Part shown: in pieces, positions 1-64,000 of the stretch
Layout: each line of letters begins with the position of its first letter
Numbering within the stretch: the first letter of the stretch is position 1
NCBI GenBank assembly: GCA_008632985.1
Contig: QPGO01000045.1
Coordinates: 434,001-498,000 of the forward strand
Source: Psammoneis japonica
Taxonomy: Eukaryota
DNA length: 64,000 nucleotides
Direction of reading: 5' to 3'
Notes under the pieces: generated by a model
The model's input: only the letters and a program-made list of their open reading frames with translations
What the model was told of the DNA's origin: nothing
Databases searched by the model: none
Position numbers and translations under genes: made by a program

Positions 1-2030
1 TCATTGGCAAGAAGCGAATTGCCAGCAGCGCAACAACAGCTTGGCTCTGTGCCCCCCTTTAAAAGCAGATCAGTGAACAGCAGATGCCGCTCAGCGCATT
101 GAAGATGACAAGGAGAGCATCATGGCAGACACCATGACAGCTGACAGCACACAGCATGGCCTCAGAGGCCGCAGCATTCTGCACCAAAGGCGACAGCCAG
201 GCAGCGACCGTCGGACCCGCGGTGGACTTGTTTGAAAAAGAAGCTCAGACCTCCAAGAAGAGAAAAACAAGCTTTGCAAAACTTGCTTGTGCTGTGTTTG
301 CACTTGTGCAAACACTGCATTGGGCTGCATGCTGTGGATTCAGGCACAGCAGATCAGTTTGAAGCAAGAGCTTGGTCTGGCTGGCCACCCACATCCTTGA
401 GAGGTGAGCATCCCTGGCAAAAATGTTGGTGTGGTGCTGGCCCAAGCAACTTTTGCCAGAGGCTGCTGACACAGGAAAACAAGATCAGTGCCATGTGTTT
501 TTGTTCTCAAACTGGCAGCACCCCCACATGGCTGCAAACTTGTTCATTTTTCAACCCAGCAGGGGCAGTGGTGCACATTCTTGAGCAACCATGACTTTGT
601 GGCAGCAAGTCGTGGTTTGACATTCTCTCTGAACCCACCAGCAATTTGCCCCGACAAGCTCTTGAAATGTTGCTGCCCTTGTTGTGTGCTTTCATGTGTC
701 AACAACAAAGTCAGAGAAGAGGCTTCAGTGGTGAGCACAGCCCCAGCAACTGCCGGGCAGCATCAACTCACACAACATGGAAAGGGGTGGGTTCCAGTCC
801 CAGGTGGGATGATGTTTTGTGACATTTGCCCCGCAGAATTCTGCGTGCATCCCCATTGCTGAGGCAGCCCACACTTGCTCCACAATGTCCCACCACAACA
901 TTGCATGCTAGCGCTGCGCAAGCTTGATCCTCATCTCTGTGAGAAAGCTGCTGGCTGTCAAACTTGTTGAGCTTTTGCTTGTTTTGCTCTGCACTTTTAA
1001 GACTGACAAAACACTGGATTCATGCTGATGCAAAAGTGGCTGGCTGCAGCTTTGCTTGTTGTGAGAAAAGACATGTTGGTTGTCGCCAATGACAAAAGAT
1101 CAGATCTGCAAAAGTGTGGGCCAAGGCTGTGGTTCAATGGAAAAAACAGAAACAACAAGCCCTCCACACAGCAACAAAACATGTGTCTGTGAGGCCAAAC
1201 AATGCCACAAAAAGAAAACTTGACTTTGGGCGGGGGTTGAAAAAGCTTTTTCTGTGACCTCTGCACCACCAAAGAGACCTGCCAGAGAAACAGGGAGTCC
1301 CAAGCAGCATGGCCATGAAACACCAAATGTCCACAATTGTGTGTCTTTTGCGCAGCTTGCAGCTTGTCTTCAATGGAGCGCACCAGCCCCACAGACACAT
1401 GAAAGCAGTTTTTCTTCTCTGGTCTCAGCTCCTGCGCCAGGTGCTTTGGTCATGCAACATGTGCATGAAGAAGAGCTTTAAAAGGACCTCAAGCTTGCCA
1501 CCAAAAGTCAATCTGTTGGTTCAGTGCCCCTCAGAAGAATGGCTCCAATGACACCCACAACAAAGCAGTGCATGTCAGCTGCTCACTGAGTGGAGGAAAG
1601 CACCAAGGAGAGACTGGCTCCTGTTTGTGCCAGCCATTGCCATGCAAGTGTGGAGCAAGCTGGGATTTTGTCTAAAAAACCAACTGTTGTCCCTTTTCTC
1701 CCCACAACTTCTTTTGTTTCAAAATGGCAGTGGAAGCCAAAAAGCCATCAGAGAAGCCAAGTGGCCACAGACACTCTGTGAAAATGCCTGCACTTTTCTC
1801 CTGTCTGCTGCCTCACTCTGGGGTTGGGAAGGAGCATTTCACAGCTTTGGTGAATCTGCATCTCCACTCCAGATGCTCTCATGATCTGCTTTGCTGGCAC
1901 CAAATTTCTCTTGGCCCAGGAGCAGCACAATTTTGGTGGTCTCCAGTGCATGATGTGGCGTGGCATGATCGGGCCATCACTGCTGTCTGCCTGTCTGGCA
2001 GCAGCTTGCGCATTTGCAAATGTCGGCCAG
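1..2030. other. TpA-depleted block 1
   Basis: Only a handful of TA dinucleotides in 2 kb, and the ORF translations lack Tyr. Boundary approximate. Confidence 0.85.
786..848 (+). mobile_element. Terminal fragment of the ~390-bp MITE family
   Basis: ggtgggttccagtcccaggtggga...gtgacatttgccccgcagaattctgcgtgc matches one end of the copy at 55527-55915. Confidence 0.7.
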
Positions 2031-2364
2031 AGCATTACTGTGGCAGCATGGTGTAACGTAACAGGCTTTGCAGACAGAATTCAAGGGCCAGCTTGAGACA
2101 GCTTCAACTTTTTTGTGAGCCTTTTGGACGATTCAACATCAACGACAGCTTTGATGTTATGGAAAATCAAAAATGAGCAGAGGTGCTGTCGACGTTGAAG
2201 GTGTTCTCCACATTCTCTTTGCAGATTTCTGTATCGGAAAGTCGTCTTACTTGCGCGAAACCTAGAATACAAGTCTAGTGACATAATCCTAATGTCAGAT
2301 TTACAATAATTATTCGTCTGCTGCTTCGAGTAGTGTTGTTACTGAGTCACCAGCTAGGAGTATT

Positions 2365-3600
2365 CTAGTAAGGCCCAAACCACGGATCCCCTCCATCATA
2401 GGCAGGGTCTCGTTTTCGAAAGCCGGTTTCAAAAATGACAGAAGTGCATTCTACTCCAGCATCACGAATCATGGATTCAGTCCAAGCCGCCATACCAGCC
2501 TTGTTCTTCATCAATCCGTGGTAATGAAATCTAAATATAGTTCCATCAATGGTCTCCAACAATTCGGCGCAGCTCCCCAACACATCAAGTACAGGCTGAA
2601 TCTCTTGCACCAATGCCTGGTCAATTTCTCCCTTTCTCAAGGTACCCACAAGGGTCCCGTAGTCTTCGTATGGCTGTCTTTGAGCCTTGTGGTATTCCAA
2701 TGACTTGCCCTCGGGCAGCCACTCACAATTCTTGGATCGTGCCAGTTCAACGGCACGTTGACGAGCGCGATGAGGAGTCATAGGGTCGAAATCTGTCATG
2801 TCTTCTGGTTTGGTGAATCGATTGTTGGTGTAGTTCTTTTCTGGATAGGACAAGGCCTCGGGGTATCCGTGCCAAGTAGCAACGTGACGAGGAACTTGCA
2901 ATTCCGGAAGAAACGGATCGACGTAGGTGCAATGATACCAAGCGATTTTCTTAGTTTCACAACGTCCTCGTTGAATCCAATTTCCAAGTCGTTTTCAGGA
3001 AAAACTGGCTCGAGATTAGTGTCGTCTCTTGTGTCATCTGCAATCATGTACGAGTCGATGGGTGTAACAATCGTACGGGTGTCAATCTGATTGGATGGTC
3101 CAAAGATCGGATCCCACCCCACCTCAATACCTTCTTTATCCTTTTCAGGCTCCTTTACATACTCCAACTCGTCACTAAGGTCGTTAGGATCAGGATCTCC
3201 AGCTTCTGGATCCCACTCGTAATCAAACTTGGATTTGAGATAAAAAATATCATACGTACCAAGGGTCGACGAATCAATCGCATCTGGGTCGTCCGTATCA
3301 AATTCTGCACCACCTTCTTCTTCCGGATCTCCATATTCATCAATCCATGTAGGATACTTGCGAACTCCGTCCTCAATTTCTTGCAGGATTTCCGCTTTGC
3401 GTTACAATTGTTCTTCTGTTTCAATGATTGCACCCGGCCTGCCGCCCGCAAGATCGATGTTTGCCATGTCCGGGCGTTTCGGTTCGACTGCATTCAGCCT
3501 TGTGCTTCTTATCCATCTTGCACTGGGTGGCATCCAAGCATGTGATGGACGCAGGCACTATGCAAGGAGCGCAGCCGCTGAAAGCACATGCCATACGTCA
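2365..3600 (-). CDS. Hypothetical protein, possibly plastid-targeted, with disablements
   Basis: Normal-composition, Tyr-containing frame joined from ORFs 2796-3167 and 2365-2901 plus upstream sequence. A hydrophobic leader ends ...SHAWMPP. In-frame stops at 3558-3560 and 3402-3404 and one frameshift near 2900-2925. Start approximate. Confidence 0.55.
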
Positions 3601-3726
3601 TGGTTGATGGGCTTTGCGATGGACGATCGCGAGACGAGAGACGACGAGCGGGCCAAATGATGGGTGGTGGTGTCACTGACAGACGCTGAGAACCTGTTTC
3701 GCGCGAATTTTCGCGAGAGATTTTCA

Positions 3727-3873
3727 CTCCCCATCGTTCGTGAAGCACTTGATGCAGCTGCTGCGCCTTGCCACGCTTGTCCACGGAGCACTGAGTGCCA
3801 TCTACGCCCTGGAGCACGCAGTGTCCCGTTTGTCCACAGGTGTAAAAAAAAATCAAAGCAAAACGATGGAGAG
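3727..3873 (+). mobile_element. ~150-bp MITE-like element (TA-eroded copy)
   Basis: Terminal inverted repeats ctccccatcgtt...aacgatggagag. Homologous to 30999-31148. Confidence 0.7.
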
Positions 3874-4002
3874 CATTGGCACAGCTCGAGGAACACGCAC
3901 CTGCAACGCCTGCCGCCATGGCGTTTTAGAGTTGCGGAGGCCCACACTGTGCGACCTGCAACTGTGACGAGATGACACACGACACGTTGCAGCATCTTTG
4001 TG

Positions 4003-6147
4003 TTGCTTTTCGTGCGATCCATGGGATTTAGTGCAGAGAGACTTTTTTTCGGAACGTGGATTTGCGTTTTTGGAGATGACGCAGTGGCGACCCATGCTCG
4101 GCATTGTTTGAGCCATTCTTCATTGTTTTCGTTCATCAAAGACACGGACATCACTTTTGGGAGGTGGGCTTGTTGGGTGAGGTCCTTGGTTTGGCGAGAA
4201 ACGGTGTTGTGGTTGTGCAGAAATCAAAAGATGGGTCTTTTTGCTTTTGTCCCAGCCATTTCTGAGCGGCAAAACCCATGCTCGGATGTTCATTCACTCA
4301 CTTCACTTCATCTGATGACTGCCTTTGCTGGCATCGACTGACCACAGTCACAAAAAGTTTTCCGTGTCTTGGGCATGCTGTGAGTGGGGGCTGTGTCGAG
4401 AAACATTGTTCTCTCACATCGACAAGAAACACCAAAAAGCATGGAATTGACACGATCCACACTTTGATGTTCATTCGTTCAATGCACCTCCTTTGTTGCG
4501 CACCATTGCTGTCATCTCTTTGTTGTGGGCACGAAAAGTGTCCCCTGTCTTGCCTGTGCTGTGTGTTTGATTTGTGGCTTGAAATGTCGGCCACACTCGT
4601 GTGGTCTCGCATCAGCATTTTTTGACTGACACCGACCGACACTTTGATGTTTGTTCATTCATTTTGTCTCTTTGCTCACACTTCTTGGATCAAATCATTA
4701 CTTTGTGGTTGCAAAAAGATTGGTCTGTCTTGGACATGCCTTCGGTGGGGTCTGTGAAGAGCAAGTGTCGCTCATGACACAACTGCGACATGCACCGACG
4801 CCTCTCCTTGCTTGCCGACAATGCATTTTCCCGTTTGTCCAATCTGTTGGACACCAACTGAGTCACACAATGGAGTGACAACAGAATGGCAACACCAAGC
4901 ACATTCTTCCATCATCTGAAGCTGTTGTTTCCTTGTTCTCCATGGCAGCATCATTCTGGATTCTCCTCGGCTGTGTCGTTCATCCGTGAGTCGAATGAAG
5001 ACTGGAACCCTCATTTTGTTCAACATCAGCTCGTTCGCTAGAAGAGTCATGAGCAGAGGAACCACTGGAGGAGTTGCTTGATGGGTTGCAAGTGCTTTTG
5101 GTTTTGATGTTGACAAAAGGACCCCAGTTCTCCTCATCAGCACTGGCAGAACTGGCAGGAATGGCGCCGGTGCTTTCCTCGGTGGACGTGTCAACAACAG
5201 CCTTTGCTTGGCATTTCTTGGTGGATCCATTGCGCGTCCTTGTATTTTGGTTGAACTCTTCCTCTTCTTTTCATGATTCCTCTGCTTCTTGCTGCTTTGG
5301 GACAGCACGCGCTTGCGGGGTGCTTTGTGACTGAAGCTTGCGCATCGCTTGTGTTGATGTTGGACAGTGTGCTCCACATTGCTCTTCACAGACCCCACCA
5401 AAGGCAAATGCAAGGCAGCACAATCTTTTTGTGGCTGCAAAGAAGAGATTTGATCAAAGAAGTGTGAGCAAAGAGATGAAATGAATGAACAAGCATCAAA
5501 GCATGGGTCGGTGTCAGTCAAAAAATGCCGATGCGAGACCACACGAGTGTGACCGACATTTCAAGCCACAAATCAAACACACAGCACAGGCAAGATGGGG
5601 GACACTTTTTGCACCTGTGATGAAGAGATGACAGCAATGGTGCACAACAAAGGAGGTGTGTTGAACGAACAAACATCAAAGCATGGATCATGTCAATTCC
5701 ATGCTTTTTGATGTTTCTTGTCGATGCGAGAGAACGATGTTTCTCGACACAGCCCCCACCCACAGCATGCCCAAGACACAGAAAACTTTTTGTGACTGTT
5801 TTGAGTTGACACTGGCAAAGGGAGTCATCAGAGGAAGTGAAATGAACGAATGAACATCCGAGCATGGGTTTTGCCGCTCAGAAATGGCCAAGACAAAAGC
5901 AAAAAGACCCATCTTTCGATTTCCACACAACCACAACAACGTTTCTTGCCAAACCAAGGACCTCACCTAACAAGTCGACCTCCTAAAAGCCAAAAGCAAT
6001 GTCCGTGTCTTCAATGAATGAAAACGATTGAGAACAGCTCAAACAAGGCCGAGCATGGGTCGGCGCAGCGTCATCTCCAAAAACACAACTTCACGTTCTG
6101 AAAAAAAGTCTCCCCGCGCTTTGTCCCACGGATCGCACGAAAAGCAA
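4003..6147. repeat. Long inverted repeat (arms ~4003-4765 and ~5380-6147), foldback or long-TIR element
   Basis: The arms are reverse complements. ORFs 4278-4625(+) and 5518-5865(-) translate near-identically. No TSD found. Confidence 0.85.
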
Positions 6148-9116
6148 TGTTGGCATTTCCGCTTGTTTGATTTACAATCGATGCTGACTGTGATTGGTGC
6201 TGTCAAAGTGTCGGCTCATTTTTGATCGAATTCTCGCTCAGCTGCTCGATTTGCCGCAGCTCCAATCAAAGCTTTTGAAGCTTCATTTGAATGATCCGAA
6301 ATCGATGCAGTGTCAGTGTTTTGTTCAGGTGTGGGGTGCAGTCTGTTTTGGGACTTTTGGGTCACTTCCAATGTCCACAACTGGATGTTCCAACAGCTTC
6401 AAAATCGTGATCGACAAATCCATGATTTCATCAAGCTCAGCAAACCTCAAGGTGATTTCGAGCACTCACAGGACAAGTGGAAGAATGCAGAGCATTGGGA
6501 GAGAAAATGTGCAAGGTTTGTGTCGAGAGTTTGACGCAACAAAAAGAGCTGCTTCAAGCTAGAATGCTCGCGTCTGTCAAACATGATGCACGTCCAGCAG
6601 CATCACATTGTCGAACTCTCCCTTTGTGGTCTGTCACGCCTCCACCCACCTGCTCACATCTCCTGACAACTCGTGAAATTCAAGAGGGTGCAGGAGAGAC
6701 AGTGAAGAATTTACCGGCATTGCCAGACAGCTGCACACCATCATCTGCGGCCCATGCCAACCGAGAAGGACGTTTTTTTTGTTTTTGTTGATGTTTGCTG
6801 TTTGTTGTGAGAAAGGATCTCGCCGTTGGATCGGGAGCAGGAAGAAGGGAGGGAGGAGAGGTGGGCCAGTCGGATCTGGAGCAAGCAAAGGTGTCAGGTT
6901 TGGCACATGTGGTCCTGTTGGCTCCGGAGTTTGCCACACTGTTGGATCGGGAGTGGGTGGGAAGAGGCGACTGAGGCAGATCTTGATCAGGCAAGACTTT
7001 CGGGTTTGGCGGAGGTGGCACTGCAGCCCTGAGAGTGGGTCTCGCCTTGGGATCGGGAGCGGGAAGAAGAGAGGGAGGTGAAGGTGGAGGAGGTGGGCCA
7101 GTCAGCAAGGCTCAGGGATGAATGCATGATGGGGATGTCTTGCAGATTGTGCGCTCCAAAGATGTGTGCACAAGGGAAGCCTGCAAGCGACTGCAATGAA
7201 AAATGAAGGCTCAGTCAGAAAAAGAGGAGGTGGTGTTGCTCGAGAGTGTCTTGCCAAGTGGCGCCAAACAACTGCAAGACTTGTGCAATCAGCGTTGTGG
7301 CTTGCACTTGATTTTCAAGTGTTCGAAACATGCTCAAAAGGCCTTGAGCATCTCATCAAAGCCCGCAAGCATGTCTGTCTGCAAAAGATGTGGCGTTTTT
7401 CCATCATCTGGGATGGATCTTCTCTGTCCCGCGAGACTTTGTTTTCGCTTGTGAGCACCTTTTCTCTCTTGCACCAACTTTCTCAGATGTTTTAGAAAAA
7501 GAGGAGACCAACAGGGCAGTGCCGACACCTGGCTTTCCAGTGGGATGGAAGTTTTTCGTGTTGAAACCATGTGTTGAAAAGAGACAGGGGCTTGCCATCC
7601 TTGGTCCAGGCCGCCCAATGCAGTGCAGCTCGGTGGACGCGGCCAAGTTAAATTGCTCAATTCTCTTTACAATCTGTCAAAATTGGCTTTGACTGTGCTG
7701 CTGCTGCCGGCACCAACATGAACGGTGTGGGCAGCAAGAAAGACGATCCGGTCAAATTCACAATGGCCAAAGCTTTGCGACTCAAGTCGAGCAGCAGCTT
7801 CAAAGCTTTCATCAAAAAGGTGTGGAACGCTGGTCGTGTGAGTTGTGTCTTCGACAGGACTGTCAACAGTGCCTCACATGTTTGAGCAACATGAACAGTT
7901 TGGACAGCAGTGATTCGAAGCTCGTTTTCTAAGAGGTGTGCACTCTGTTGACGAGAGTTGATTGATGATCCCATTGAGAACAACACAGCGAGGCACCTCA
8001 ATGGGGTTTCATGCCTGCGATGATGTCACGACTCACTGTGACTGTCCATCCTTTTTTAGTTTTGCTGTGAATTTGACGAGTGGGAAAAGGCTCCACCTGC
8101 ACTGGGTCTTCCTGTGGGGCAGTCGTTTGGGATTGAAGCCAGCGACTGGGAAAACAGACAAACACTGGACTCATCCTTTGTGGTCTGAATGGAAAGCATT
8201 GTTGTTCAGTGGAAGCCGCCAAGAATCATTTCGACAGGATGTTGAGTTCAATTTGACCCAATTTGTTTTGCAACTTTGTTGGAGCAGCAAAACAATCTCC
8301 AGCGGAATGGCAAGCAATGGCATGACCCAATGATCTGGGAAAAATAAAATGGGCGAACAACAGCAGCAGTGCGCTGCAGCGCTTTCATCAGGGTCCTGCA
8401 AAGAGTGTGGTCTTTGTGAGTGGCATGGCTGCAGGAAGCATGCTTCTTGTCGACATCCTTCTGGGAGCGAGGGAACGGCTCCTTCTCGCAAAAGGTGAGG
8501 TGATCATGAAATGTTGATGCCGTTGACAACGTCAACTTGCCAACTTGCGTTCGATGCCTTGGATTTGTTGCTGCTGGAAATTTTCAGAGCATGAGTGACT
8601 TCTGCTGATTCCTGGTTTTCCAGATGGTTGGACCTTTGTGTTGAACAAAGACGTGCCCCACGAGGCATTTTTTCACTGCATTGGACATGGAGTGCAGTGA
8701 CAAGTCCGACGAGGATTTTCCCCATGAATCGAATTCTGAGCATGCAAAAGAAAAAGAAGCTGCACTCCTTGGATGGTGCTGACTCAAAGCACTCCCAAAA
8801 AGAGAACCTCAAGAGGGATGTTTGAAAGCCTGCAACTGGTGCAGTCTGAGGAACTGCATGAATGCAAGTGTGATTCCTTTGAGCTCTGCATCAAAGCAAA
8901 GTGTGAAGCGTGTTGTGTGTCCGGCATGGGAGCCGTGCTGATGGCAGCAAGGAAGTGCACCTCCGGAAGAAGCTCCCTCGTTTGACACTTGCACTTTGCC
9001 GTGGCTTTTTGTTTGGGCTTTTCAGCTCAGGAGTCGACCATCCCTGGAACCGGGAGTGGCGCACATGTCAGGGCCAAGAATGCGTTTGGCGACACTCCAT
9101 TGGGACATGAGGAGTC

Positions 9117-9512
9117 GACGCGTTCCAGCTCCAGGTGGGGCCTCATGCCACTGCACTGTGACATCAACAGTTTTTGGATCACGTCGCATGTCGCGCACGC
9201 ACATTTCTGCGTGTTGCATTCTGCGAAATTGTTTTGCACTCCCTGTTTTGCGAAGCCAAAGGCTTTCTATTTTCAACATTCATGAGAATGAAAATGCACT
9301 GGGCACATTCTTTAATGTCTGAAGAATGTGCCCGGGCAAACTGTCAATGATGTGCTGCAAGCATGAAGGAGGAGATACGTTCGTAAAATTGCCTCTTTTT
9401 CTGTTGGCGATCATTTGCATTTTCATTGCAGCACAAATTTACTGCGGAGCTTGCACGCAGAATTCTGCGGGCCCAATGTCACACAGAGTCCCACCTGGGA
9501 CTGGAACCCGTC
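9117..9512 (-). mobile_element. ~390-bp MITE, divergent subfamily, TSD AGTC
   Basis: TIR gacgcgttccagctccaggtggg / cccacctgggactggaacccgtc, with agtc on both sides. Confidence 0.9.
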
Positions 9513-51770: not shown

Positions 51771-51774
51771 AGCA

Positions 51775-54239: not shown

Positions 54240-57200
54240 AGTGACTTTTTCTGCAGTTTCACACTTTGCCTGCAGAGGGTTTTTTTCTGCCCACCCAAGT
54301 GCCACTCTGCCACCACAACTGCAGTCAAGCAAGCCACCCAAACTGTGCTCAGCCATTTGAGGTTGTTTCTTGGAACTTGAAGAGTGCACTGAAAAGCTGA
54401 GAGTGCAAACGTTTGGCAAAAATGACTTTTTCTGTGGTTTGACACTTTGCCTGCACGGGTTTCTGCCCACCCTGAGGCTGTTCTGCCACCACAACGGCAG
54501 TCAAAAAAGCCACCCAAACTGTGCTCAACCCTTTGAGGCTGTTTTTTGCAATGAAGAGTGTGGTCAAATGCTGAGAGTTCAAGCCATTGGGCAGAAGTGA
54601 CTTTTCATGCCACTGACACTTTTCCACCACACAGCAGCTGCTTTTCTGCCTGCTGCCTGCATGGGCAGTGTGATCACCTGCATTTTGTGGGAAAAAACCC
54701 GCTGAACAATTTTGTGGATGGATGTGTTTTAATGATCACATCTCTCCCTCAAACACCATCATCCAAACAAACCCTCAGTGTCTTGCTCCCCTTTCCACAC
54801 ATGAGGAATTTGGCTCTGCTGTTTGTTTTCTCCGACAACGCGATTTGAGAAAAACCATCAAACACGTGTGCATTCACGACAAATTTAATGACTGTTTTCC
54901 CTTCAAGCATGTTTCTTGGGACACAAGGAGTGTGCTCAGAAGCCAAGACTGCCAGCACATTGGCAAAAGTGCCTTTTGCTTTCTGTGGCTTGACACTTTG
55001 CCTCTCTGTGGGTTTCTGCCTGCCCAGAGGCTGCTCTGCCACAGGGCTGGCAGCAGTCAAGCAGGTCACCAAAGCTGTGCTCAATCATTTGACAATGTTT
55101 CTTGGGACATGAACAGTGTGCCAAGTGGCCACAAGAGGGCAGAAAATTTGGCAAAAGTGATTTTTTCTGCCCGCCGACACTTTGACACCAGACTTTTCTT
55201 TGGCTGCAGCTGACACTTTGCTCTGCCACCACAACTGCAGTTAATTGAGCCCCACAACTTGTGCTGAACCCCTTGAGGTTGTTTTTTGGGACATGGAAAG
55301 TGTGCTCAGAAACCAAGATTGCAAGCTCATTGGCAGTGGTGACTTTTCCTGAGGTTTGACACTTTGCCTGCAGGGGCTTCTGCCCACCCAGAGGCTGCTC
55401 TGCTGTCACATGGCTGCAACCAAGCAAGCCACCCAAATGGTGCTCAACCATTTGACAAAATGCTTTTGGACAGGACAAGTGTGCTCAAAAGATGAGAGTG
55501 CATGCAATTTGGCAGAAGTGACTTTTGACGCGTTCCAGGTCTAGGTGGGACCTCGTGCCACTGAACTGTGACATCGACAGTTTTTTGAATCGCGTCGTAT
55601 GTCGCGCACGTACATTTCTACGTGATTTTGGCGAAATTTTGTATGATTTTATAGTGCAATTATCAGGCTGTCCATTGAACAACTTTTCACATTTTTTTCT
55701 TCTACGCCATTCTCGAGTGTCTTAAGAATGGCGCAGGGCAGGCGCATCATCCAAAACTTCGAGTACGAACAGGGACAGATGTGCTACAAACGTGGCCGTT
55801 TTTTTTATGTCGAAGACAAATGTGTGCATCAACCAGAGTACGAACCACAGAGCTCGCACGTAGAATTCTACGGGGCAAATGTCACAAAAAGTCCCACCTG
55901 GGACTGGAACCCGTCTTTTTCTGCCGACTGACACATTCCCATCAAACACTGCTTTTCTGCCTTCAGCCCAGATTTCACACTGCCACACCACAGCTGCAGT
56001 TGAGCAAGCCACCCAAGCTGTGCCCAACCTTTCATGAATGTTTCTTGGGACACAAGAAGTGTGCTCAGAAGCCAGTGCTGCAAACACATTGGCAGAAGTG
56101 GCTTTGTCTGTGGATTGACACTTTGCCTCCAGTTGCATCTGCTCACCCACACCAGAGGCTGCTCTGCCACCACAGCTGCAGCCAAGCAAACCACCCAGAC
56201 TCTGCTCAACCCTTTGAGCTCATTTCTTTGGACATGGAAAGGGCACTCAGATGCTGAGAGCACAAACAATTTGGCGGAAGTGACTTTGTTTCTGCCAACT
56301 GACACTTTCCCCCCTGCTTCTGGGCTGCGCTTGCTGCCCAGAACTTGCTTTGCACTGCCACAACTGCAGCCAAGCAAGCCACCCACACTGTGCTTGTCCC
56401 TTTGAGGTTGTTTTTTAGAACATGAAGAGTGTGCTCAGAAGCTGAGAGCACAAACAATTTGGCAGCTTCCTTGCTGCTTTTCCACCAGGTTTCTCTGCCT
56501 GCTGCCTGGATTTGCTCTGACACCACAGCTGCACTCAAGCAAGCTGTCCAAGCTGTGCCAAGCCATTTGAGGGTGTTTGGTCAAGATGTGATTTTTCTGC
56601 CAACTCTGACACTTTTCCACCGTGCTTCTTTGCCTGCTGCTGCCACCCAGATTTGGCTCTGCCGCCACAGCTGCAATGTCAAACAAGCTGCCCAAGCTGA
56701 GGCAAGCCAATTGAAGATGTTTCTTGGGACATGAAAAGTGTGCTCAGAATCCAAAACTGCAGCTGCATTGGCTGAAATGATTTTTCTGCTGTTTGACACT
56801 TTGCCTCCAACAGCAGCTTTCGCCCAACTGGAGCCTGATCTTCTGCCACAGCTGCACTCAAGCATGCCATCCAAATGGCACTCAGCCAAACAATCAGGCA
56901 CAAGTGACTTTTTCTGTGGTTTGACACACTTTGCCTGTGCTTTGCAGCAGTTTCTGCTGCCCACCCAGGTGCCTGCTCTGCTGCCATGACAGCTGCAGTC
57001 AAACAAGCCACCCAAACTGTGCTCAGCCATTTGACAACATTTCTGGGGACATGAAGAGCGTGCTCTTTTTCCACCAGGCTTGTCCTCCACCTCTTGCTGC
57101 TGACCATGTTTTGCACTCTGCTGCTGCCACACAACTGCAGTCAACAAAGCTGCCAAAACTGTGCTTGCCCCTTTGAGGTTGTTTCTTGGGATGTGAAAAG

Positions 57201-57320
57201 CATGCTCAGAAGCTGAGGGAGCAAACAATTTGGCAGAATTGACATTTTGCGTGGTTTGATGCTTTGCCTGCAGAGAGATGGGTTTCTGCCAAACCAGAGG
57301 CTGCTCTGCCACCACTGCTG
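54240..57320. repeat. Degenerate tandem array of ~180-bp units, about 14 copies
   Basis: Recurring gtgactttttc...gacactttgcc...caactgcagtcaagcaagccacccaaactgtgctca...tttcttgggaca...gtgctcagaa. Confidence 0.85.
55527..55915 (-). mobile_element. 389-bp MITE, young TA-rich copy, TSD TTTT, inserted in the satellite
   Basis: gacgcgttccaggtctaggtgggac / gtcccacctgggactggaacccgtc. Confidence 0.93.
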
Positions 57321-57815
57321 CAGAGTTGGGCAAGCAACCCAAGCCCATTTCGATGGAACAAGAAGGGCTCATGTTGGCGCATGATGGCAGAGAGTGTGAG
57401 CTCATCATCCCATCTTGTCCTGTCATTTGACACTCCATTTCCTTGAGATTTTTTGAGGGATCTGCACTGCATTCCGCACAATTCGGCCCACTCTTGTTCC
57501 CGACAAACGACGACTCCTCTGCTCGCACTTGGTCTGCTCGTTGAATGACTGTGTGCCGCATTCTGTCTTGCGTGGTCCCGTCCGTCTGACAAAATTTGAA
57601 ACAACATGGGAACATGAAGACGCATTTGAAATGACCGTTATTCTGCATGGATAAACACAGGAAGTCGTGTCACAATCTGTAAGAAAACGTTTCTAACACT
57701 TAACCATGTCTATACATTGAAAATAAATTCAACGTTTTCAATATAGCATACATTTGCCGATGCGTACATTCAAAAATTGGCAGTTCAATTGAAAAAAACT
57801 ACGTTCTAAACATTT

Positions 57816-59058: not shown

Positions 59059-60559
59059 TTCATGTGGTATGTTTGGATTCTGTGTCCGGCTTCATGTTGA
59101 CAAGCACATTTAGTAGCTACACTTTATAACCCGCCCTATATCTTTTCAATCATATGCTAGCTTGTGAAAGTTTCAGAATGGAAAATGGAAGCGTTGCTTT
59201 TTACTTATGTACCAAGTTACCTGTGTGGCTAGTTTCCTACAGCCATATTGGGTCTTGTATTGTTTGCCGTGTTGGATACACCTCATACGTAAGAAAGCAA
59301 AGCCCAAAGGACGGACTCGCTTGGTAGAGCACTTATCAGACATGTCAGCCCTCGAAATTTCAAAGTTCTGGATCAAGTCGTGCGTTTCTAACACATCACG
59401 GACGTTTTTTTCTTTGCGCATCGGATCACTCTTTTTGAGACCAATCGAAGGCGCTGTGACTGATGTTTGATTGAAAAATTAAAACCGAGATCTGCAATCC
59501 CTGACTACTTGACATGGACTGAACAGCGATTGGACTACTAAAAGCACGTCGGCGTGGTATCACAGTGACAACTCCGACACTCGTAAACCGTAAAACGGTG
59601 AATTGTGAGCTCACAACAACGCGTGAGCACAAGAATGACCAAACAACCACCAGTCATTTCGACGGTCATTCTAATGACACTCGATGGGACACGGGAGGGG
59701 GGCAGACATAATTTTAAATGCAACATCAGCAATAAATTTATTTCGATCTGTGTAAACTCACACTCTTAGCTCCTTTTCATTTTATGTGCGGAGCCACAAT
59801 GGCTCGCAAACAAAGCATTCCCGCTGTGCTGCTTTGTCGTTGCCAGTTTTGTTGGAACACATGGTGCCGCATGGACAAAGCTTGAATGGAAGCGTGGTCG
59901 CACCAGCCCGGAGCTCGGTTGAAAGTTCTGAGTGCCAGGCGAAGAGCGAACCTTTTAGATTTTTTGGTTGGGTTGATGGTTGATTGATCAATTGATTGGT
60001 GTGTTTGCGATGTGTGCTTGTCCCCACATTGCAGTGTCGTGTGCGTCTGCTTTGTCTTCTTGTTCTTTCCAACCGCGCTCTTGCTCCACACATTCCTTGA
60101 CACAGAGTGAAGGATCCTGCTTCACACACATCGTCAGAGAGGTCAGGAGCACGTTCTGCAGGCATGTCTCTGATCAATGATGACATGGCTGGCCATGCAC
60201 TGACAAGCTAGAAGCAACAACCACAAGACGAATCGCTGAACTGCTCCAGTCACAAGAAAATCGGAAAGTGCAAACCACACCCAGCGCTTCTTGCCGCGCA
60301 ATGAGACCAGCTCCAAGGCCTCACCAAATTTGTTTGGCAGGCAGGTCGACATCCCAACACTCAAGGCAGCAAGGCAATGTCCAGAGCATTGAAAATGTCA
60401 AACATCCGCTGTCTGAGACAAGACAGAGCAACACAAGAAGGAAGAACTGCTGGTCTTGATGACACTCATGAAGCTGCGCAAGGGCTTGTGCGACTCGCCA
60501 AAATCAACACTGAGACCAGTCAGCCACAAAGAGACAAAGACCACACCCCAGTTGATTGC

Positions 60560-60770
60560 CAAGCGGCCACAGACAATGCCGTCCTCCAAGCCACAGGCTC
60601 TGAGCGAACTCACGAAGCCACTTTCCATCAAGGAGTTCAGCACGCAAATGCGAACAATGCAGTCCTCCAAACCACAGACTCGGAGCAAACAAATGCAGCC
60701 CGCGTCTGTCAAGGAGCTCAGCAAGTGACTGCAAACAGTGCCACCATCCAAGCCGGCGGCTCTGAGCAAA
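60560..60770 (+). repeat. 81-bp (27-aa) tandem repeat, about three units
   Basis: aca(a/g)tgc at 60573, 60654 and 60735: NAVLQATGSE / NAVLQTTDSE / SATIQAGGSE. Confidence 0.75.
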
Positions 60771-61482
60771 ATGAGTCATGCCCTGCTTTGGAGGCGAATG
60801 GCAAAAATCCCCTGTTGACACCGTCGATGAAACAGCGCCAGTTGAGAATCCCAGCAAACACGTGCTGGGCATGACTCCTGCTTGCCATCACCACTCCTTT
60901 AGAAAATGCACGTCAGAGCAAGGTGACTGCTCATCCCACGTGACTTCTGGCTCTTTGCAAGAGCCCAGCCAAGGAGCAACGTCCCAACCAAGGAGCAACA
61001 TCAGTTGAAGACAGTGGGGCGACGAAAGTGCCGAGTGCAATCACTCAGCAACAGACGTGTTCTAGCCCCCGGTGATGCACAAAATGACAATCAATTTTGA
61101 ACACAAATTGTGTGTCTTTTGGTGCATGGAGCATTTTCATGTAAAACACTCAAGTGGATTGGCTTTTGCAGGCATCCAGAGCACTCATCAGAGTGCACGA
61201 AATGTCAAAAATGTGCAGATTTACATGATGATAATTTGTCAAAATGTTGCAAAAAATTGTTGTCACATGATGAAAGGCCAACCTCTGGTTGCAAGTTTGG
61301 TGCGCCAGTGTTGCAACAACTTGTTGAGAATTGTTTGTGCCATTTTTCACTGTGTCCACATCGCTGTTTCTGCCTCCACCTTGTTGCCACATGCCAATGC
61401 GTGATTTCTTTGCCACACAATCCTTGGTTTGTCAATTTTCGCAAACATTGTTTTAAACAAGAAAATCATTTCATCAGTTGAG

Positions 61483-62100
61483 TCAATCCCTTGTCACATC
61501 TGCAGTGCAGTGACCAAGTGCTGTGTCAACTGTGCACACATTTTCTTGCTGCAACTCTCTTAAACCAAGCTGACGATCATCATCGGACTCGTCTCCATCG
61601 GACTCGTCTCCTCCGTCATCCGTTTTGCCTTTTGCGCCTTCCTCCTGCTCATCGTTGTCACTGTTGTTGTCCCTGCTGCTCTCCACCATTGGGCTGTTCA
61701 TTGCCTTCACCTTCTCCGCATCACCGGTCAGTGCTTTCTTCTTCTTCTTTTTTGCTTCTCCGGACTTCTTGCACTCACTTTTCTTGATCTCCGCATGCCA
61801 CTTTTCAAACTCCTTGCCCTCCTTGGAGTCTCTGTCTTTCATCACCTCTTTGCACAAATCGTCGAACCGATTGATTCCATCATCTCCCCAAGACACTCAT
61901 TGTTTCTTTGGCTTCATGTGCCGAGGGGCAGGCCTTGTTTCTTCAGGCTCCATTTCCTCACCCAGTTCTTCCACCGCCTCCTCCTTGTTCCTGCATGCCC
62001 ACACCTGCCAACAATTCTCCCCATTTTTTGCGTGTTGTTCTTCTTTTCCCTTCTCATCCACAAGACAAGGATGATGAGCATGAGTCTTGATGAAGGCCCT
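61483..62100 (-). pseudogene. Probable accessory ORF relic of the adjacent transposon
   Basis: SWGDDGINRFDDLCKEVMKDR followed by a Lys/acidic tail. Divergent from the transposase. Confidence 0.35.
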
Positions 62101-62619
62101 GTCAACATTGTCTGATTGAAAATGGACGGAAACCCTCTTCTCTGTCCCGGTTGTTGCCAAAGTTTTTTGCGAACAGCCTGCCATTGGAGATGCTTGCCAA
62201 CGTGTTGCTCAGTTGCCCAAGAGTTGCAAACCCAAGATCTGATCCCAGATCAAAGTGACATTCCTGCCACAACAGAGGGGCCACCCAAAGAAAGTGGCAG
62301 TTCTTCCTCTTTGTCCTCTGATGATGATGAATCCCATCCGAGGCGATCTGCTTGCAGCAGATTCCCAAGATCTTCAATGAGTGATCCGAGCAGCAGCCCC
62401 TTGCTCCCCTCCCCAGATGACGCGCCGCACGGAATGGACGACATGTCCTCCATTTCATTCAACCACAGCATGCATGGAGCTGAGCTTTCAGCAATGAACG
62501 ATTTGGATGTTGGCGGTGATCAATCCTTTGCTGCAGTGTTGGACGTGACAATGGAGGAGGAAGAGGACATTCACGATGAGGATCAACGTTTGGGGATCAG
62601 GTGTGACGCTCTCCTGCAG

Positions 62620-64000
62620 AAGAGGCCTTGGCTTCTGCTCCCTCTTTGACAAATCTTGAGGGAGCTTGTGCAGAGTTGTGCAAGAAGCTCATGGACACAC
62701 GTGGTGCTCCTCTGGAATTGTGCGACTGCATTGTTGATTTCATTGAGAGGCACACTGGCAACAGCAAAATTGAGCTTGGTGCAGTTCTGCCAAGGAGAAA
62801 AGAGTTGATGCGCACCTTAACCAAGCATTTCCCTCTTCCACCCAGCGAGTCCATTCCTGTCACTCTAGAAACCAAAAATTTCAAAGCCGGTTTGCCAAAA
62901 TGAGTGTCAGTGCCAAGATGGGATTTCACAAAGGTCTGGGAACAGTTTTTGCTCGATCCTCACCTGCGGTGCAGCAGAGAGAACATGGCCGATCCAGACA
63001 ATCCTTTTGGGAAGCACAAAGTGAAGGGACCGGATGACAAGTGCCTTTTGGCGGGTGAGTGGCACAGGCGCAGTTGCGCAGAATGGATGACTGACCCAAA
63101 GAAACAATTTTTTGAGTGCAATGTCATTTGCCTCAACAAGACTGGCAGGACACAAGGGATGGGATCACATTGTGGAGAACCAGTGATCATGACCTCTGCG
63201 CATGTTGCCTTCAACAAATGGTCAGACAAGAGTGTCTGGAAACCAATTGGTTGTCTCCCGGATTTGGAAAAGATGTCGTCATCTGCGGCAAAGAATCTCT
63301 CAAACAATTGCAAGGCGGAGAAGGGACGCTTGTTGAGAGACTGCCACACTTGCTTGCGTGTCATTTTGGAGCCACTTTTGGAAGTCATGAGAAAAGGAGG
63401 CATGAACACACACGTGTGACGAGGGGATGAGATGCGATGCCTCCACGCAATCCCGCTGATCATTCTGATCACAGGAGATGCAAAAAGCGGCGACTGTCTC
63501 GTCGGATGATGCGGAGGTCACAACTGTCGTCAACGTTGCTGTCGTTTTTGCCTCGCTGGCTCAACAAACTGGACAACCCATGGATTGAATGCGAGTTCAT
63601 CAGAGGACTGGATCTCCAACAAGTGCAAACTAAGGCCAACAATGACAACAGATCAGACCAAGAAAGGAAGTGCTGGTTGGGCATCTTGCATCACCTCAAG
63701 CAACACAACGCACCCACCAACTGTCTTTTTGAGGCAGACTTTGGTGCACAACCATGTGGGCGTCACCCTTGCGACAGCAAGCAACATGATGCATCTCTTT
63801 GAAAATGGCACCTTGAAAAGGGCAATCAATTCATTTGTAGACAGCATGACACCTGTGGTCGCAAGTGAGGTGGACAGAACAGTGGAAAGGATTTTCAGCA
63901 ATCACCGGTCAACTTGCAAAGCCTCCTTTTTGCGAACAAACTTCAAAGGAGGAGCAACGTCGCTTGCCTTCCTCAACTCTCACCACTGGGCTGGAATGGC
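62620..64000 (+). mobile_element. Plavaka-like transposase relic, running off the window
   Basis: GAPLELCD, DPDNPF, GEWH, ICLNKT, GEPVIMT, WKPIGCLPDL, RDCHTCLRVIL, ITGDAKSGD match the Plavaka pattern if Tyr is restored. Confidence 0.65.

What the first reader, a model, noticed from the sequence alone, without database searches (positions are those of the whole stretch)
1..64000. Region-restricted TpA-erasing hypermutation (TA->TG/CA), a candidate reverse-RIP genome defence
Seen: five blocks covering over half the window have almost no TA. Their ORFs lack Tyr and are rich in Cys/His, while gene islands have normal TA. The blocks hold almost all the TE relics, the satellite and the pseudogenes. 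Established: fungal RIP and 5mC deamination cause C->T, and RIP creates TA. Here the change is A->G at TpA on either strand, the opposite direction. Inference: an enzyme-driven process acts on repeated or silenced chromatin. It would destroy Tyr codons, TAA/TAG stops, TATA-like motifs and TA target sites. I know of no named system like this, but I cannot check the literature.
Basis: partly seen in the sequence, partly recalled or inferred. Interest (0 to 1): 0.93.

Follow-up and report, generated by a model that had tools for sequence, protein, structure and literature searches.

The report
TpA-erasing hypermutation blocks in diatom DNA
In over half of this diatom DNA stretch nearly every TA step has been turned into TG or CA by a real, region-limited mutation process, of a kind I found reported only once, in 2026, in an unrelated alga.

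Summary
Seven TA-poor segments (36,851 of 64,000 bp) have TA obs/exp 0.01-0.07, against about 0.57 in the gene islands. TG/CA is raised to 1.5-1.9 and CpG lowered to 0.21-0.68.

The direction is shown. Six copies of a roughly 390-bp MITE carry 25, 16, 10, 5, 5 and 4 TA. At the TA sites of the richest copy, the others read TG or CA in 70 of 117 copy-sites. The reverse change occurs in 5 of 234.

It is not a base-calling artefact. Contigs of a public run (word depth about 35) match TA-poor stretches with no mismatch. Metagenome contigs of relatives show the same TA/CG-poor, TG/CA-rich blocks.

The host is a diatom, judged from the best named hits of two proteins.

The same signature was measured in Bigelowiella natans mutation-accumulation lines (bioRxiv 10.64898/2026.01.13.699255, 2026), so the kind is no longer unknown. 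Unreported in my searches:
- occurrence in diatoms
- near-saturation
- coupling to CpG decay
- a flank preference (R-TA-Y erased best)
- targets that are MITEs and host-type pseudogenes, not recognisable viral DNA

The mechanism is inferred: DNA adenine deamination in silent chromatin.

The parts
1..2035 (.). TA-poor segment (TA obs/exp 0.04, CG 0.21, TG 1.87, CA 1.72)
   Evidence: segmentation
3595..13530 (.). TA-poor segment (TA 0.06, CG 0.62). Holds the inverted repeat, the kinesin relic and a degenerate MITE copy.
13922..17037 (.). TA-poor segment (TA 0.06, CG 0.68). Holds an ankyrin-repeat relic.
21925..29603 (.). TA-poor segment (12 TA in 7,679 bp, obs/exp 0.02; CG 0.31). An X1 contig matches 22912-24671 with 0 mismatches and 1 gap.
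47443..55541 (.). TA-poor segment (TA 0.07, CG 0.43). Holds the glycerol-kinase pseudogene, the aminotransferase relic, two MITE copies and the start of the tandem array.
55870..57638 (.). TA-poor segment (1 TA in 1,769 bp; CG 0.22) inside the degenerate tandem array
59784..64000 (.). TA-poor segment (TA 0.05, CG 0.53), running off the window end
13514..13907 (+). MITE copy with 25 TA, the least mutated. It has terminal inverted repeats of about 30 bp and a 4-bp target duplication. A contig in run X1 joins 13512 to 13910 without it.
16983..17376 (+). MITE copy with 10 TA, at the edge of a TA-poor segment
48484..48884 (-). MITE copy with 5 TA
51421..51763 (-). MITE copy with 4 TA and an internal deletion
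55527..55915 (-). MITE copy of a diverged subfamily, with 16 TA
9117..9512 (-). Old MITE copy with a diverged interior, 5 TA
4003..4764 (+). Left arm of an inverted repeat, 86% identical to 5379-6147. The commonest dinucleotide difference between the arms is CA against TG (19 cases).
5379..6147 (-). Right arm of the inverted repeat
47422..48774 (-). Glycerol-kinase (FGGY) pseudogene spread over four reading frames. Tyr positions of solved glycerol kinases read His and Cys here.
50601..50900 (-). Class-III aminotransferase relic (E 6.6e-5, below Pfam's cut-off)
10073..10288 (-). Kinesin motor-domain relic (E 7.7e-5, below Pfam's cut-off)
13873..14244 (-). Ankyrin-repeat relic (E 1e-12)
54233..57323 (.). 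Degenerate tandem array, offsets about 182 bp, copies 67-80% alike. TA and CpG are nearly absent.
29604..47442 (.). Largest TA-normal gene island (TA 0.60, CG 0.99): Cu-ATPase, Cpn60 and the FeFe-hydrogenase fusion. It serves as the internal control.

Best explanation
SHOWN. These are stretches of a diatom nuclear chromosome in which a DNA-level mutation process has converted almost every 5'-TA-3' into TG or CA. That is an A:T>G:C transition at TpA, hitting either strand about equally. It acts in place, after sequences have arrived. It leaves the neighbouring gene islands untouched and runs alongside CpG decay.

In MITE copies the rate per TA base is about 8-19 times that of other positions and about 2-7 times that of CpG bases. 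Flanks matter: R-TA-Y is erased best and Y-TA-R least.

INFERRED. The blocks are transcriptionally silent, CpG-methylated chromatin. A polynucleotide adenine deaminase (a TadA/ADAT2-like enzyme is the leading candidate) reaches DNA there and deaminates the A of TpA to hypoxanthine. Hypoxanthine is copied as G. The result is TG when the top strand is hit and CA when the bottom strand is hit. Repeated episodes exhaust TA.

The effect is irreversible inactivation: Tyr codons, TAA/TAG stops and TA-rich signals are lost. This is the same process as the TpA hypermutation measured in Bigelowiella natans.
For: (1) Depletion and mass balance. TA drops from 0.57 to 0.04 and CG from 0.99 to 0.43, while CA/TG rises from 1.21 to 1.68. 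G+C is unchanged.

(2) Direction.
- At the 25 TA sites of the TA-richest MITE copy, the other five copies read TG 38, CA 32, TA 27 and other 20, of 117 copy-sites.
- Of its TG/CA sites, only 5 of 234 are TA elsewhere (Fisher p 1e-35).
- With the ancestor taken as the agreement of the two youngest copies, A>G after T is 8/27. After A it is 2/117, after C 5/63 and after G 0/70.

(3) There is no general AT>GC drive. Non-TA A/T>G/C is 13/479 against 51/145 for TA bases in three close copies.

(4) Independent hits after duplication. The two arms of an inverted repeat differ by CA against TG at 19 sites. CpG decay alone predicts about 3.

(5) Recency.
- Of the 40 of 823 differences shown between the window and other contigs of run X1, 34 lie in TA-poor segments.
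- Seven of those are window TG/CA against TA, and 2 are window TA against TG/CA.
- One X1 contig lacks the 25-TA MITE copy.

(6) Not a long-read artefact.
- X1 contigs of word depth 33-37 match 13001-13540, 13889-15029, 16004-17014 and 22912-24671 with 0 mismatches.
- Metagenome contigs L004, L005 and L008, which encode the nearest hydrogenase relatives, have blocks with TA 0.09-0.36, CG 0.21-0.39 and TG/CA 1.3-2.0.

(7) Flank dependence of TA retention, TA-poor against normal. The raw counts below compare 34.4 kb of TA-poor DNA with 27.1 kb of normal DNA. Length-scaled retention runs from 0 (ATAT, GTAC) to 0.40 (TTAA).

| context | TA-poor / normal |
|---|---|
| ATAT | 0/62 |
| GTAC | 0/69 |
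| ATAC | 1/191 |
| CTAA | 27/87 |
| TTAA | 23/45 |

(8) Precedent. In B. natans mutation-accumulation lines, 230 of 231 mutations in two silent viral inserts were A>G or T>C, all at TpA. The genome also holds 124 TpA-poor, CpA+TpG-rich clusters, and an ADAT2-like candidate was named.

(9) Host-type pseudogene. Tyr positions of solved glycerol kinases read His and Cys in the pseudogene.
Against: - No enzyme was seen. The window encodes no deaminase and no genome was available to search.
- No mutation rate was measured.
- Methylation and silence are inferred from CpG decay only.
- Within single MITE copies, TG and CA outcomes are interleaved rather than in strand-coordinated runs. That is not what one processive single-strand deamination episode would leave, although many separate episodes would.
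- The 3'-neighbour order implied by retention (T best, A worst) does not match ADAR's recalled preference for a 3' G. From recall, natural ADAT targets never have U after the edited A.
- Retention also reflects re-creation of TA, so the flank preference is not a clean measure of enzyme specificity. The small MITE sample agrees only roughly.
- Two MITE copies inside the blocks still hold 25 and 16 TA, so the process is slow or episodic.
- The library type of run X1 is not on record, and it may be the sample the window was assembled from.
Confidence: 0.6

Rival explanations
1. A base modification placed specifically at TpA in silent chromatin makes that site mutable, as 5mC does for CpG. The modification could be N6-methyladenine or an oxidised or glycosylated thymine such as 5hmU. 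No dedicated deaminase is needed. Mispairing or faulty repair of the modified base gives A:T>G:C.
For: - TA and CG, the two self-complementary YpR steps, decay together in the same blocks and both end as TG/CA.
- The symmetric R-TA-Y preference would suit a dimeric or palindrome-reading modifying enzyme.
- Outcomes on the two strands are about equal and interleaved, as for CpG decay.
Against: - No TpA-specific DNA modification of diatoms came up in my searches.
- From recall, eukaryotic 6mA is placed at ApT, not TpA, and marks active genes. ApT is only mildly lower in the blocks (0.81 against 0.92).
- The loss is faster than that of CpG, which asks a lot of an indirect route.
- The episodic, line-specific bursts seen in B. 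natans look regulated.
Confidence: 0.2
2. Biased mismatch repair. A T:G or A:C mismatch-specific glycosylase or short-patch system, highly active in methylated chromatin, resolves replication mismatches at TpA towards G:C. The recalled analogy is how very-short-patch repair depletes CTAG in E. coli.
For: - It co-occurs with CpG-methylation-type decay.
- Thymine-DNA glycosylases can start aberrant, mutagenic repair in particular dinucleotide contexts (PMC4041421; only the search listing and the start of the abstract were seen).
Against: - CpG itself still decays in the blocks, so T:G repair there is not efficient.
- Replication errors would have to arise at TpA about ten times more often than elsewhere.
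- A 1000-fold local rate rise, as measured in B. natans, is hard to reach by repair bias alone.
Confidence: 0.08
3. RNA-level A-to-I hyperediting of double-stranded transcripts (ADAR-like), copied back into DNA.
For: ADARs usually favour U before the edited A, as stated in the preprint's discussion.
Against: - The affected MITE is a DNA transposon with terminal inverted repeats and target duplications, and its copies were changed differently in place.
- A>G after A is 2/117 against 8/27 after T, a far sharper contrast than ADAR's recalled preference.
- Whole blocks, including a tandem array and pseudogenes, are affected.
- From recall, ADARs are confined to animals.
Confidence: 0.03
4. Sequencing or assembly artefact: a modified base in these regions is systematically miscalled by long-read base-calling, so the real DNA has TA.
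For: - The library types of the runs are not on record.
- Run X1 may be from the same sample as the assembly and may have been used to polish it.
Against: - X1 contigs at a uniform word depth of about 35 match TA-poor stretches of 0.5-1.8 kb with 0 mismatches. Words must recur exactly to be assembled, which noisy miscalled reads would not give.
- Contigs of other organisms from other metagenome assemblies show the same blocks.
- A modification on both strands of a palindrome should leave conflicting calls, including TA and CG, not clean TG/CA (inference).
- Sharp TA-normal MITE insertions sit inside the blocks.
- The same signature was called from Illumina NovaSeq mutation-accumulation data in B. 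natans.
Confidence: 0.03
5. Inherited composition: the blocks are foreign DNA (viral or bacterial) that never had TA, with no mutation in place.
For: Blocks have sharp edges and mostly unrecognisable content.
Against: - MITE copies, whose TA-richest copy has 25 TA, lose TA after inserting into the blocks.
- The repeat arms differ by CA against TG.
- Relics inside the blocks are eukaryote-type genes with Tyr replaced by His or Cys.
- Other contigs of the same sample still carry TA at sites where the window has TG/CA.
Confidence: 0.02

Closest known systems
TpA-specific hypermutation of integrated viral DNA in the chlorarachniophyte Bigelowiella natans (Mettrop et al., bioRxiv 10.64898/2026.01.13.699255, April 2026; abstract, Results and Discussion read)
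   Same: - Almost only A>G and T>C, at TpA, giving TpG or CpA.
- Confined to particular regions while the rest of the genome is ordinary.
- Long-term footprint of TpA-poor, CpA+TpG-rich clusters. The blocks here pass that paper's cluster thresholds (Rho TpA <=0.43, Rho CpA+TpG >=1.52, at least 3 consecutive 1-kb windows).
- The main target there, the giant-virus insert, is transcriptionally silent.
   Different: - Host is a diatom (stramenopile), not a rhizarian.
- Depletion here is near-complete (0.01-0.07 against 0.45 for their giant-virus insert) and covers 58% of the window.
- CpG decays in the same blocks. The preprint's text never mentions CpG.
- Recognisable contents are a MITE family, a tandem array and host-type pseudogenes, not viral genes.
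- A flank preference is visible here. No flank analysis appears in their main text, and their supplements could not be opened.
- Their evidence is direct (mutation-accumulation lines). Mine is comparative.
Repeat-induced point mutation (RIP) of fungi
   Same: Region-wide, irreversible transition hypermutation that inactivates non-genic or duplicated DNA, tied to a dinucleotide context and to methylated chromatin.
   Different: - RIP is C:G>T:A at CpA and creates TpA. Here A:T>G:C destroys TpA and creates CpA/TpG.
- Dependence on duplication is not shown here.
- DNMT4/RID-like genes do exist in many diatoms (PMC9998398, passages only), but nothing links them to this.
5-methylcytosine deamination (CpG decay) in methylated repeats
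   Same: It occurs in the same blocks, at a self-complementary YpR step, on both strands, and ends in TG/CA.
   Different: It cannot remove TA. TA is lost about 2-7 times faster than CpG in the same MITE copies.
TadA/ADAT2-ADAT3 wobble-adenosine deaminases, and the ADAT2 enzymes reported to deaminate DNA (amphioxus BjADAT2, PMC10354150: search listing and start of abstract only; as cited in the preprint)
   Same: The chemistry fits (A to hypoxanthine, read as G). From recall, the natural target A34 follows the invariant U33, that is a U/T-A step.
   Different: - No such gene could be examined here.
- Natural activity is on tRNA.
- The 3'-T preference seen here has no counterpart among natural ADAT substrates (recall).
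APOBEC3/AID cytosine-deaminase hypermutation
   Same: Deaminase-driven, context-specific hypermutation of invading DNA, used as a defence.
   Different: It is C>U and not A>I. It typically leaves strand-coordinated clusters, which single MITE copies here do not show.

Membership tests
TpA-targeted regional hypermutation (B. natans type) | Changes are almost only A>G/T>C and fall on TpA | tested here: met
   MITE copies: TA>TG/CA in 70 of 117 copy-sites against the reverse in 5 of 234. A>G after T is 8/27 against 7/250 after other bases. TA-base transitions are 51/145 against 13/479 for other A/T>G/C changes.
TpA-targeted regional hypermutation (B. natans type) | [quoted passage not shown] | tested here: met
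   Runs of up to 9 consecutive 1-kb windows have TA 0.00-0.11 and mean TG/CA 1.46-1.89; almost all reach 1.52, and a few lie at 1.46-1.51. Segments.
TpA-targeted regional hypermutation (B. natans type) | Restricted to some regions; the rest of the genome has an ordinary spectrum | tested here: met
   Gene islands have TA 0.53-0.60 and CG about 1, with sharp edges. Only this window could be examined.
TpA-targeted regional hypermutation (B. natans type) | Targets are integrated viral or other foreign sequences | tested here: inconclusive
   No viral or TE protein domain was found in the ORFs of 60 aa or more in the blocks. Recognisable relics are glycerol kinase, aminotransferase, kinesin and ankyrin, plus one MITE family. 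Heavily decayed foreign genes could escape Pfam.
TpA-targeted regional hypermutation (B. natans type) | De novo rate about 1e-7 to 1e-6 per site per generation, active only in some lines | not testable with these tools
   Needs mutation-accumulation lines. The only hints of recency are TA against TG/CA differences between contigs of one sample and an untouched 25-TA MITE copy.
Fungal RIP | C:G>T:A at CpA, raising TpA and lowering CpA/TpG | tested here: not met
   The opposite is seen: TA 0.04 and CA/TG 1.68 in the blocks. TG/CA>TA occurs in 5 of 234 copy-sites.
Fungal RIP | Triggered by sequence duplication | tested here: inconclusive
   Duplicated elements are affected (MITE, inverted repeat). 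So are stretches covered by a single X1 contig at the baseline word depth of about 35. Old duplicates would no longer share words.
5mC-driven CpG decay | CpG depletion with TpG/CpA gain in silent repeats | tested here: met
   CG is 0.21-0.68 in the blocks against about 1 outside. CG>TG/CA occurs in 30 of 147 MITE copy-sites. Methylation itself was not measured.
5mC-driven CpG decay | Accounts for the whole signature | tested here: not met
   It cannot remove TA. The repeat arms show 19 CA:TG sites against about 3 expected from CpG decay.
ADAR-type RNA hyperediting | Graded 5' preference (U, A over C, G), a 3' G preference and an RNA intermediate (preferences recalled) | tested here: not met
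   A>G after A is 2/117. 3' T is erased best. DNA-transposon copies were changed in place.
Base-calling artefact of modified DNA | Accurate or amplified reads disagree with the assembly at the affected sites | tested here: not met
   X1 contigs match with 0 mismatches over four TA-poor stretches. The same blocks appear in other organisms' metagenome contigs. X1's platform is not on record.

The most novel reading that the evidence does not exclude
TpA erasure is a chromatin-targeted silencing-and-destruction pathway shared across SAR algae, at least diatoms and chlorarachniophytes. It is run by a DNA adenine deaminase with an R-TA-Y preference that is recruited to CpG-methylated heterochromatin. 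It disables invaders, and also any host DNA that falls silent (redundant gene copies, satellites). It thereby rewrites a large share of some diatom chromosomes and sets their codon, stop-codon and motif content.
Probability: 0.35. Interest if true: 0.85.

Novelty: new member of a known kind. Interest (0 to 1): 0.68.

Why it matters
- **Ecological weight of the host.** Diatoms are among the most important primary producers, and their genome evolution and epigenetics are actively studied. A second, far more extreme case of TpA-specific hypermutation, in a different supergroup branch, would turn a single-species curiosity into a candidate widespread eukaryotic pathway.
- **Testable handles the first report lacks.** This window offers a flank motif (R-TA-Y), a link to CpG-methylated blocks, and a high-copy MITE whose copies act as dated reporters. 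It also offers evidence that host-type genes, not only viral DNA, are destroyed.
- **Enzyme discovery.** If an enzyme is behind it, it would be a natural DNA adenine editor with defined context. That is of interest for genome-defence biology and for base-editing enzymology.
- **Practical consequences.** TA-free blocks have only TGA stops and no Tyr codons. They will therefore produce long spurious ORFs in annotation, and they will mislead repeat-finding and divergence dating.

Tried and rejected
- **Whole genome:** none is held. Genome-wide Rho maps, a full MITE census and a deaminase-gene search were not possible.
- **Earlier findings of this scan:** none for this genome or for these words.
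- **RNA:** no RNA holder was listed. Run X2, labelled 'DNA?', shows GT..AG joints in a gene island and has bins without cover over 22511-26314. Absence of cover is not used as evidence of silence.
- **Depth in X1:** summed word depth is about 150-240 over gene islands against about 36-100 over TA-poor bins. I could not explain this and draw nothing from it.
- **Rfam gathering scan of the window:** 0 matches.
- **ESM Atlas on the longest TA-poor ORF** (14781-15719): no usable hit. With TAA and TAG gone, ORFs of about 300 codons are near chance expectation (my estimate), so I treat them as spurious.
- **Pfam coverage:** 240 of the window's 287 ORFs of 90 aa or more were scanned. So were all 188 ORFs of 60-89 aa lying inside the blocks. 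No TE or viral domain was found. The 47 unscanned ORFs lie in gene islands.
- **Pfam on 42 ORFs of the TA-poor parts of L004, L005 and L008:** one weak phosphodiesterase hit only.
- **Strand bias:** TG-against-CA skew per kb is small and changes sign, so there is no replication- or transcription-strand signal.
- **Strand-coordinated runs within MITE copies:** none seen.
- **Flank preference within the MITE alone:** too few sites to confirm.
- **Literature for diatoms:** searches gave no report of TpA depletion or TpA hypermutation in diatoms or other stramenopiles. One search failed on a too-short term.
- **Supplements of the preprint** (bioRxiv) could not be opened. Its Table S2 may hold flank contexts that bear on the R-TA-Y claim.

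Full report
**1. What is in the sequence**

The window has 1,215 TA (obs/exp 0.29), CG 0.68, and TG and CA 1.47 each. The deficit is not spread evenly. Counts per 250 bp switch abruptly between 0-2 and 6-9+.

A two-state segmentation on TA occurrence gives seven TA-poor segments:
- 1-2035
- 3595-13530
- 13922-17037
- 21925-29603
- 47443-55541
- 55870-57638
- 59784-64000

Together they cover 36,851 bp (57.6% of the window) and hold 114 TA. Within them TA obs/exp is 0.01-0.07, CG 0.21-0.68 and TG/CA 1.5-1.9. The other 27,149 bp has TA 0.53-0.82 and CG 0.88-1.44.

G+C is equal in the two compartments. The losses balance the gain. TA falls by 0.53 and CG by 0.56 obs/exp units, while CA and TG together gain 2 x 0.47.

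In six-frame translation the blocks have 0.06% Tyr against 2.22% outside, with more Cys and His. TAA and TAG are nearly gone, so TGA is almost the only stop. This explains the many long overlapping ORFs.

**2. Whose DNA it is**

The TA-normal islands carry:
- a Cu-transporting P-type ATPase
- a Cpn60 chaperonin
- an FeFe-hydrogenase fused to FAD-binding (CysJ-like) modules
- a glycosyltransferase

The best named relatives of the ATPase piece are diatoms at 50-70% identity. Those of the Cpn60 piece are diatoms at about 90%: Ditylum, Bacillariaceae, Nitzschia, Trieres, Cylindrotheca and Fistulifera. Parmales score 86%. I take the host to be a diatom. No whole genome is held.

**3. Is it real DNA or a base-calling artefact?**

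One public run (X1, coded; library type not on record) holds 75% of the sampled words of 22001-31000. When its contigs are laid on the window, four TA-poor stretches are matched with 0 mismatches. These are 13001-13540, 13889-15029, 16004-17014 and 22912-24671 (the last with one gap). The contigs have a uniform word depth of 33-37. Contigs built from exactly recurring words at that depth are what accurate reads give.

The run may be the sample the assembly came from, so it is not an independent specimen. It is, however, a check on the letters.

Independent specimens come from metagenome contigs that encode the nearest hydrogenase relatives (52-60% identity). These contigs also contain blocks:

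| Locus and range | TA | CG | TG/CA |
|---|---|---|---|
| L005 3401-5500 | 0.13 | 0.32 | 1.75-1.87 |
| L008 10501-11743 | 0.09 | 0.35 | 1.87-1.89 |
| L004 7001-11000 | 0.36 | 0.21 | 1.60-1.66 |

The closer relatives L001 and L002 (83% identity) show none in the 11 and 4 kb held.

One more argument is an inference. A modification on both strands of the TA palindrome should give conflicting calls, not clean TG/CA with CG also depleted. I put the artefact reading at about 3%.

**4. Direction and timing: the MITE as a reporter**

Self-comparison found a roughly 390-bp element at 13514-13907, 16983-17376, 48484-48884, 51421-51763, 55527-55915 and, degenerate, 9117-9512. The alignment shows terminal inverted repeats of about 30 bp. 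Each copy has a different 4-bp target duplication: TGGC, CCGC, AGGA, TGCT, AAAA and GACT (read). It is therefore a MITE, a DNA transposon. All six copies lie in or at the edge of TA-poor segments.

The copies hold 25, 10, 5, 4, 16 and 5 TA. At the 25 TA sites of the richest copy, the other five read as follows, over 117 scorable copy-sites:
- TG 38
- CA 32
- TA 27
- other 20

At its 234 TG or CA copy-sites only 5 read TA (Fisher p 1e-35). Its CG sites are kept in 93 of 147 and read TG or CA in 30.

To avoid choosing the ancestor by hypothesis, I also took as ancestor only the positions where the two youngest copies agree. In the three older copies the counts are:

| Change | Context | Count |
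|---|---|---|
| A>G | after T | 8/27 |
| A>G | after A | 2/117 |
| A>G | after C | 5/63 |
| A>G | after G | 0/70 |
| T>C | before A | 5/27 |
| T>C | before other bases | 10/160 |

Per base, three close copies have lost TA bases at 8.4, 7.7 and 19 times the rate of non-TA, non-CG positions. That is 6.6, 2.9 and 1.9 times the rate of CG bases. Non-TA A/T>G/C (13/479) is no higher than non-CG G/C>A/T (13/332) in those copies. This rules out a general GC-ward drive such as biased gene conversion.

The copies differ in whether a given site became TG or CA, so the hits are independent and happened in place.

**5. The same in non-MITE DNA**

- **Inverted repeat.** The arms (4003-4764 and 5379-6147, 86% identical) differ most often by CA against TG, at 19 sites. 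From the 17 CG:CG and 20 CG:TG/CA pairs, CpG decay alone predicts about 3. The rest must descend from TA.
- **Glycerol-kinase pseudogene.** It lies at 47422-48774 and is spread over four reading frames. It reads AHFSATK where solved glycerol kinases have AYFSATK, and C where one of the two displayed structures has the Y of a LYN motif (the other has F).
- **Other relics.** There are aminotransferase, kinesin and ankyrin relics. No transposase, reverse transcriptase, integrase or viral protein domain appeared in any ORF of 60 aa or more in the blocks.

**6. Recency**

Run X1 also holds other, similar contigs (alleles or recent paralogues). Of 823 differences, 40 were shown, and 34 of those lie in TA-poor segments. 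They break down as follows:
- 7: window TG/CA against TA in the other contig
- 2: window TA against TG/CA
- 7: TG/CA against CG
- 2 rows: one CA against TG pair
- 16: other

The shown rows are the best supported, not a random sample.

One X1 contig joins 13512 to 13910 with a single letter between, so it lacks the 25-TA MITE copy. The least-mutated copy is therefore absent from a sister sequence in the same sample. This fits a young insertion that the process has not yet reached. The process is thus recent, but slow or episodic.

**7. Flank dependence**

I compared NTAN classes (reverse complements pooled) in TA-poor against TA-normal DNA:

| Class | TA-poor / normal |
|---|---|
| ATAT | 0/62 |
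| GTAC | 0/69 |
| ATAC | 1/191 |
| ATAG | 2/114 |
| ATAA | 8/154 |
| CTAC | 10/156 |
| GTAA | 17/137 |
| CTAG | 8/38 |
| CTAA | 27/87 |
| TTAA | 23/45 |

R-TA-Y is wiped out and Y-TA-R partly survives. Part of this could be re-creation of TA rather than specificity. The 25 MITE sites agree only roughly. There is no consistent TG-against-CA strand skew along the window.

**8. Mechanism**

Shown: a DNA-level, TpA-specific A:T>G:C process that acts on both strands. It is confined to blocks that also show the footprint of CpG methylation, and it is still active recently.

Inferred: the blocks are silent, methylated chromatin. An adenine deaminase converts the A of TpA to hypoxanthine, which is copied as G. 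TadA/ADAT enzymes edit an A that follows an invariant U (recalled). ADAT2 enzymes have been reported to act on DNA (cited in the preprint; PMC10354150 seen only as a listing).

Three points weigh against a simple processive deaminase:
- the interleaved TG/CA outcomes
- a 3'-T preference with no known counterpart
- no enzyme in hand

The main rival is a TpA-specific base modification that makes the site mutable, as 5mC does at CpG. This would account naturally for the parallel fate of the two palindromic YpR steps. Biased mismatch repair, RNA editing with copy-back, inherited composition and artefact are less likely. The reasons are given under Rival explanations.

**9. Comparison with what is known**

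A full-text search found a preprint of April 2026, bioRxiv 10.64898/2026.01.13.699255. I read its abstract, Results and Discussion. Its main findings:
- In mutation-accumulation lines of Bigelowiella natans, 231 of 302 nuclear mutations fall in two integrated viral regions.
- 230 of those are A>G or T>C, all at TpA.
- The rate is about 6e-7, which is 1000-fold above background, and only some lines show it.
- The genome has 124 clusters of TpA-poor, CpA+TpG-rich windows.
- An ADAT2-like candidate is named.

The window meets that signature and that paper's cluster thresholds. It differs in several ways:
- the host is a diatom
- the depletion is deeper (0.01-0.07 against 0.45)
- CpG decays alongside (the preprint's text has no 'CpG', 'diatom', 'stramenopile' or 'flanking')
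- there is a flank motif
- the recognisable targets are different

Its supplements could not be opened.

Fungal RIP is the opposite change, and its defining features are not met. DNMT4/RID-like genes are widespread in diatoms (PMC9998398, passages only), but nothing ties them to this. My searches found no report of TpA depletion or TpA hypermutation in diatoms.

**10. Verdict**

- 'No known system' is out of date by a few months.
- 'Repeat-induced' and 'enzyme-driven' remain unproven.
- I file it as a new member, in diatoms, of the TpA-hypermutation kind first described in B. natans. It has features that make the mechanism more testable.
- Interest 0.68.

Noticed in passing
window 13514-13907, 16983-17376, 48484-48884, 51421-51763, 55527-55915, 9117-9512, fragment 789-848: A roughly 390-bp MITE family with terminal inverted repeats of about 30 bp and 4-bp target duplications of no fixed sequence. 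Summed word depth in run X1 over its bins is 30,000-79,000, against 36-100 over neighbouring TA-poor bins. This fits a very high-copy family, though the figure is not a copy number. The tiny run X3 laid only on this element, as contigs of 47-154 letters.
   Followed up: partly
window 43042-46918 (+): A diatom gene that joins 2Fe-2S and 4Fe-4S ferredoxin domains, an FeFe-hydrogenase large and small subunit, and an FAD-binding (CysJ-like) module. It is split by short gaps that look like introns. The nearest relatives (about 80% identity) are unnamed metagenome proteins. The nearest named ones (about 45%) are from anaerobic protists and Thermotogae.
   Followed up: partly
window 47422-48774 (-): Glycerol-kinase pseudogene directly abutting the largest gene island. 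Consecutive parts of the domain lie in different frames with no gap between them, so they are frameshifts rather than introns.
   Followed up: partly
window 54233-57323: Degenerate tandem array with offsets of about 182 bp and copies 67-80% alike. It is too diverged for Tandem Repeats Finder and is interrupted by a MITE copy. It has the lowest CpG and TA of the window.
   Followed up: partly
window 60573-60723: 81-bp tandem repeat, 1.9 copies, 77% matches, inside a TA-poor segment.
   Followed up: no
window 20627-20886 and 20932-21193: Contigs of run X2 skip 258 and 260 bases with GT..AG ends. These are two introns of a gene with no Pfam match at about 20.2-21.2 kb. X2 therefore behaves like an RNA library although it is labelled 'DNA?'.
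   Followed up: no
window 13001-13140 against other X1 contigs: Eleven differences within about 100 bases between the window and another contig of the same sample in a TA-poor stretch. In a gene-island stretch (18129-18668) there are 8 mismatches in 535 bases. Sister copies seem to diverge much faster inside the blocks.
   Followed up: partly
window 17439-22510 and 29485-32000 against TA-poor bins, run X1: Summed word depth over gene islands (about 150-460) is several times that over TA-poor bins (about 36-100). A 157-deep contig differs from the window at 8 positions. This is unexplained; it may reflect alleles, paralogues or mixed library content.
   Followed up: no
L004 7001-11000; L005 1-1000 and 3401-5500; L008 10501-11743: Metagenome contigs of organisms with related hydrogenases carry their own TA-poor, CG-poor, TG/CA-rich blocks next to ordinary genes. 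In L005 10001-11000, CpG is low (0.26) while TA is normal (0.60), so the two decays can be uncoupled.
   Followed up: partly
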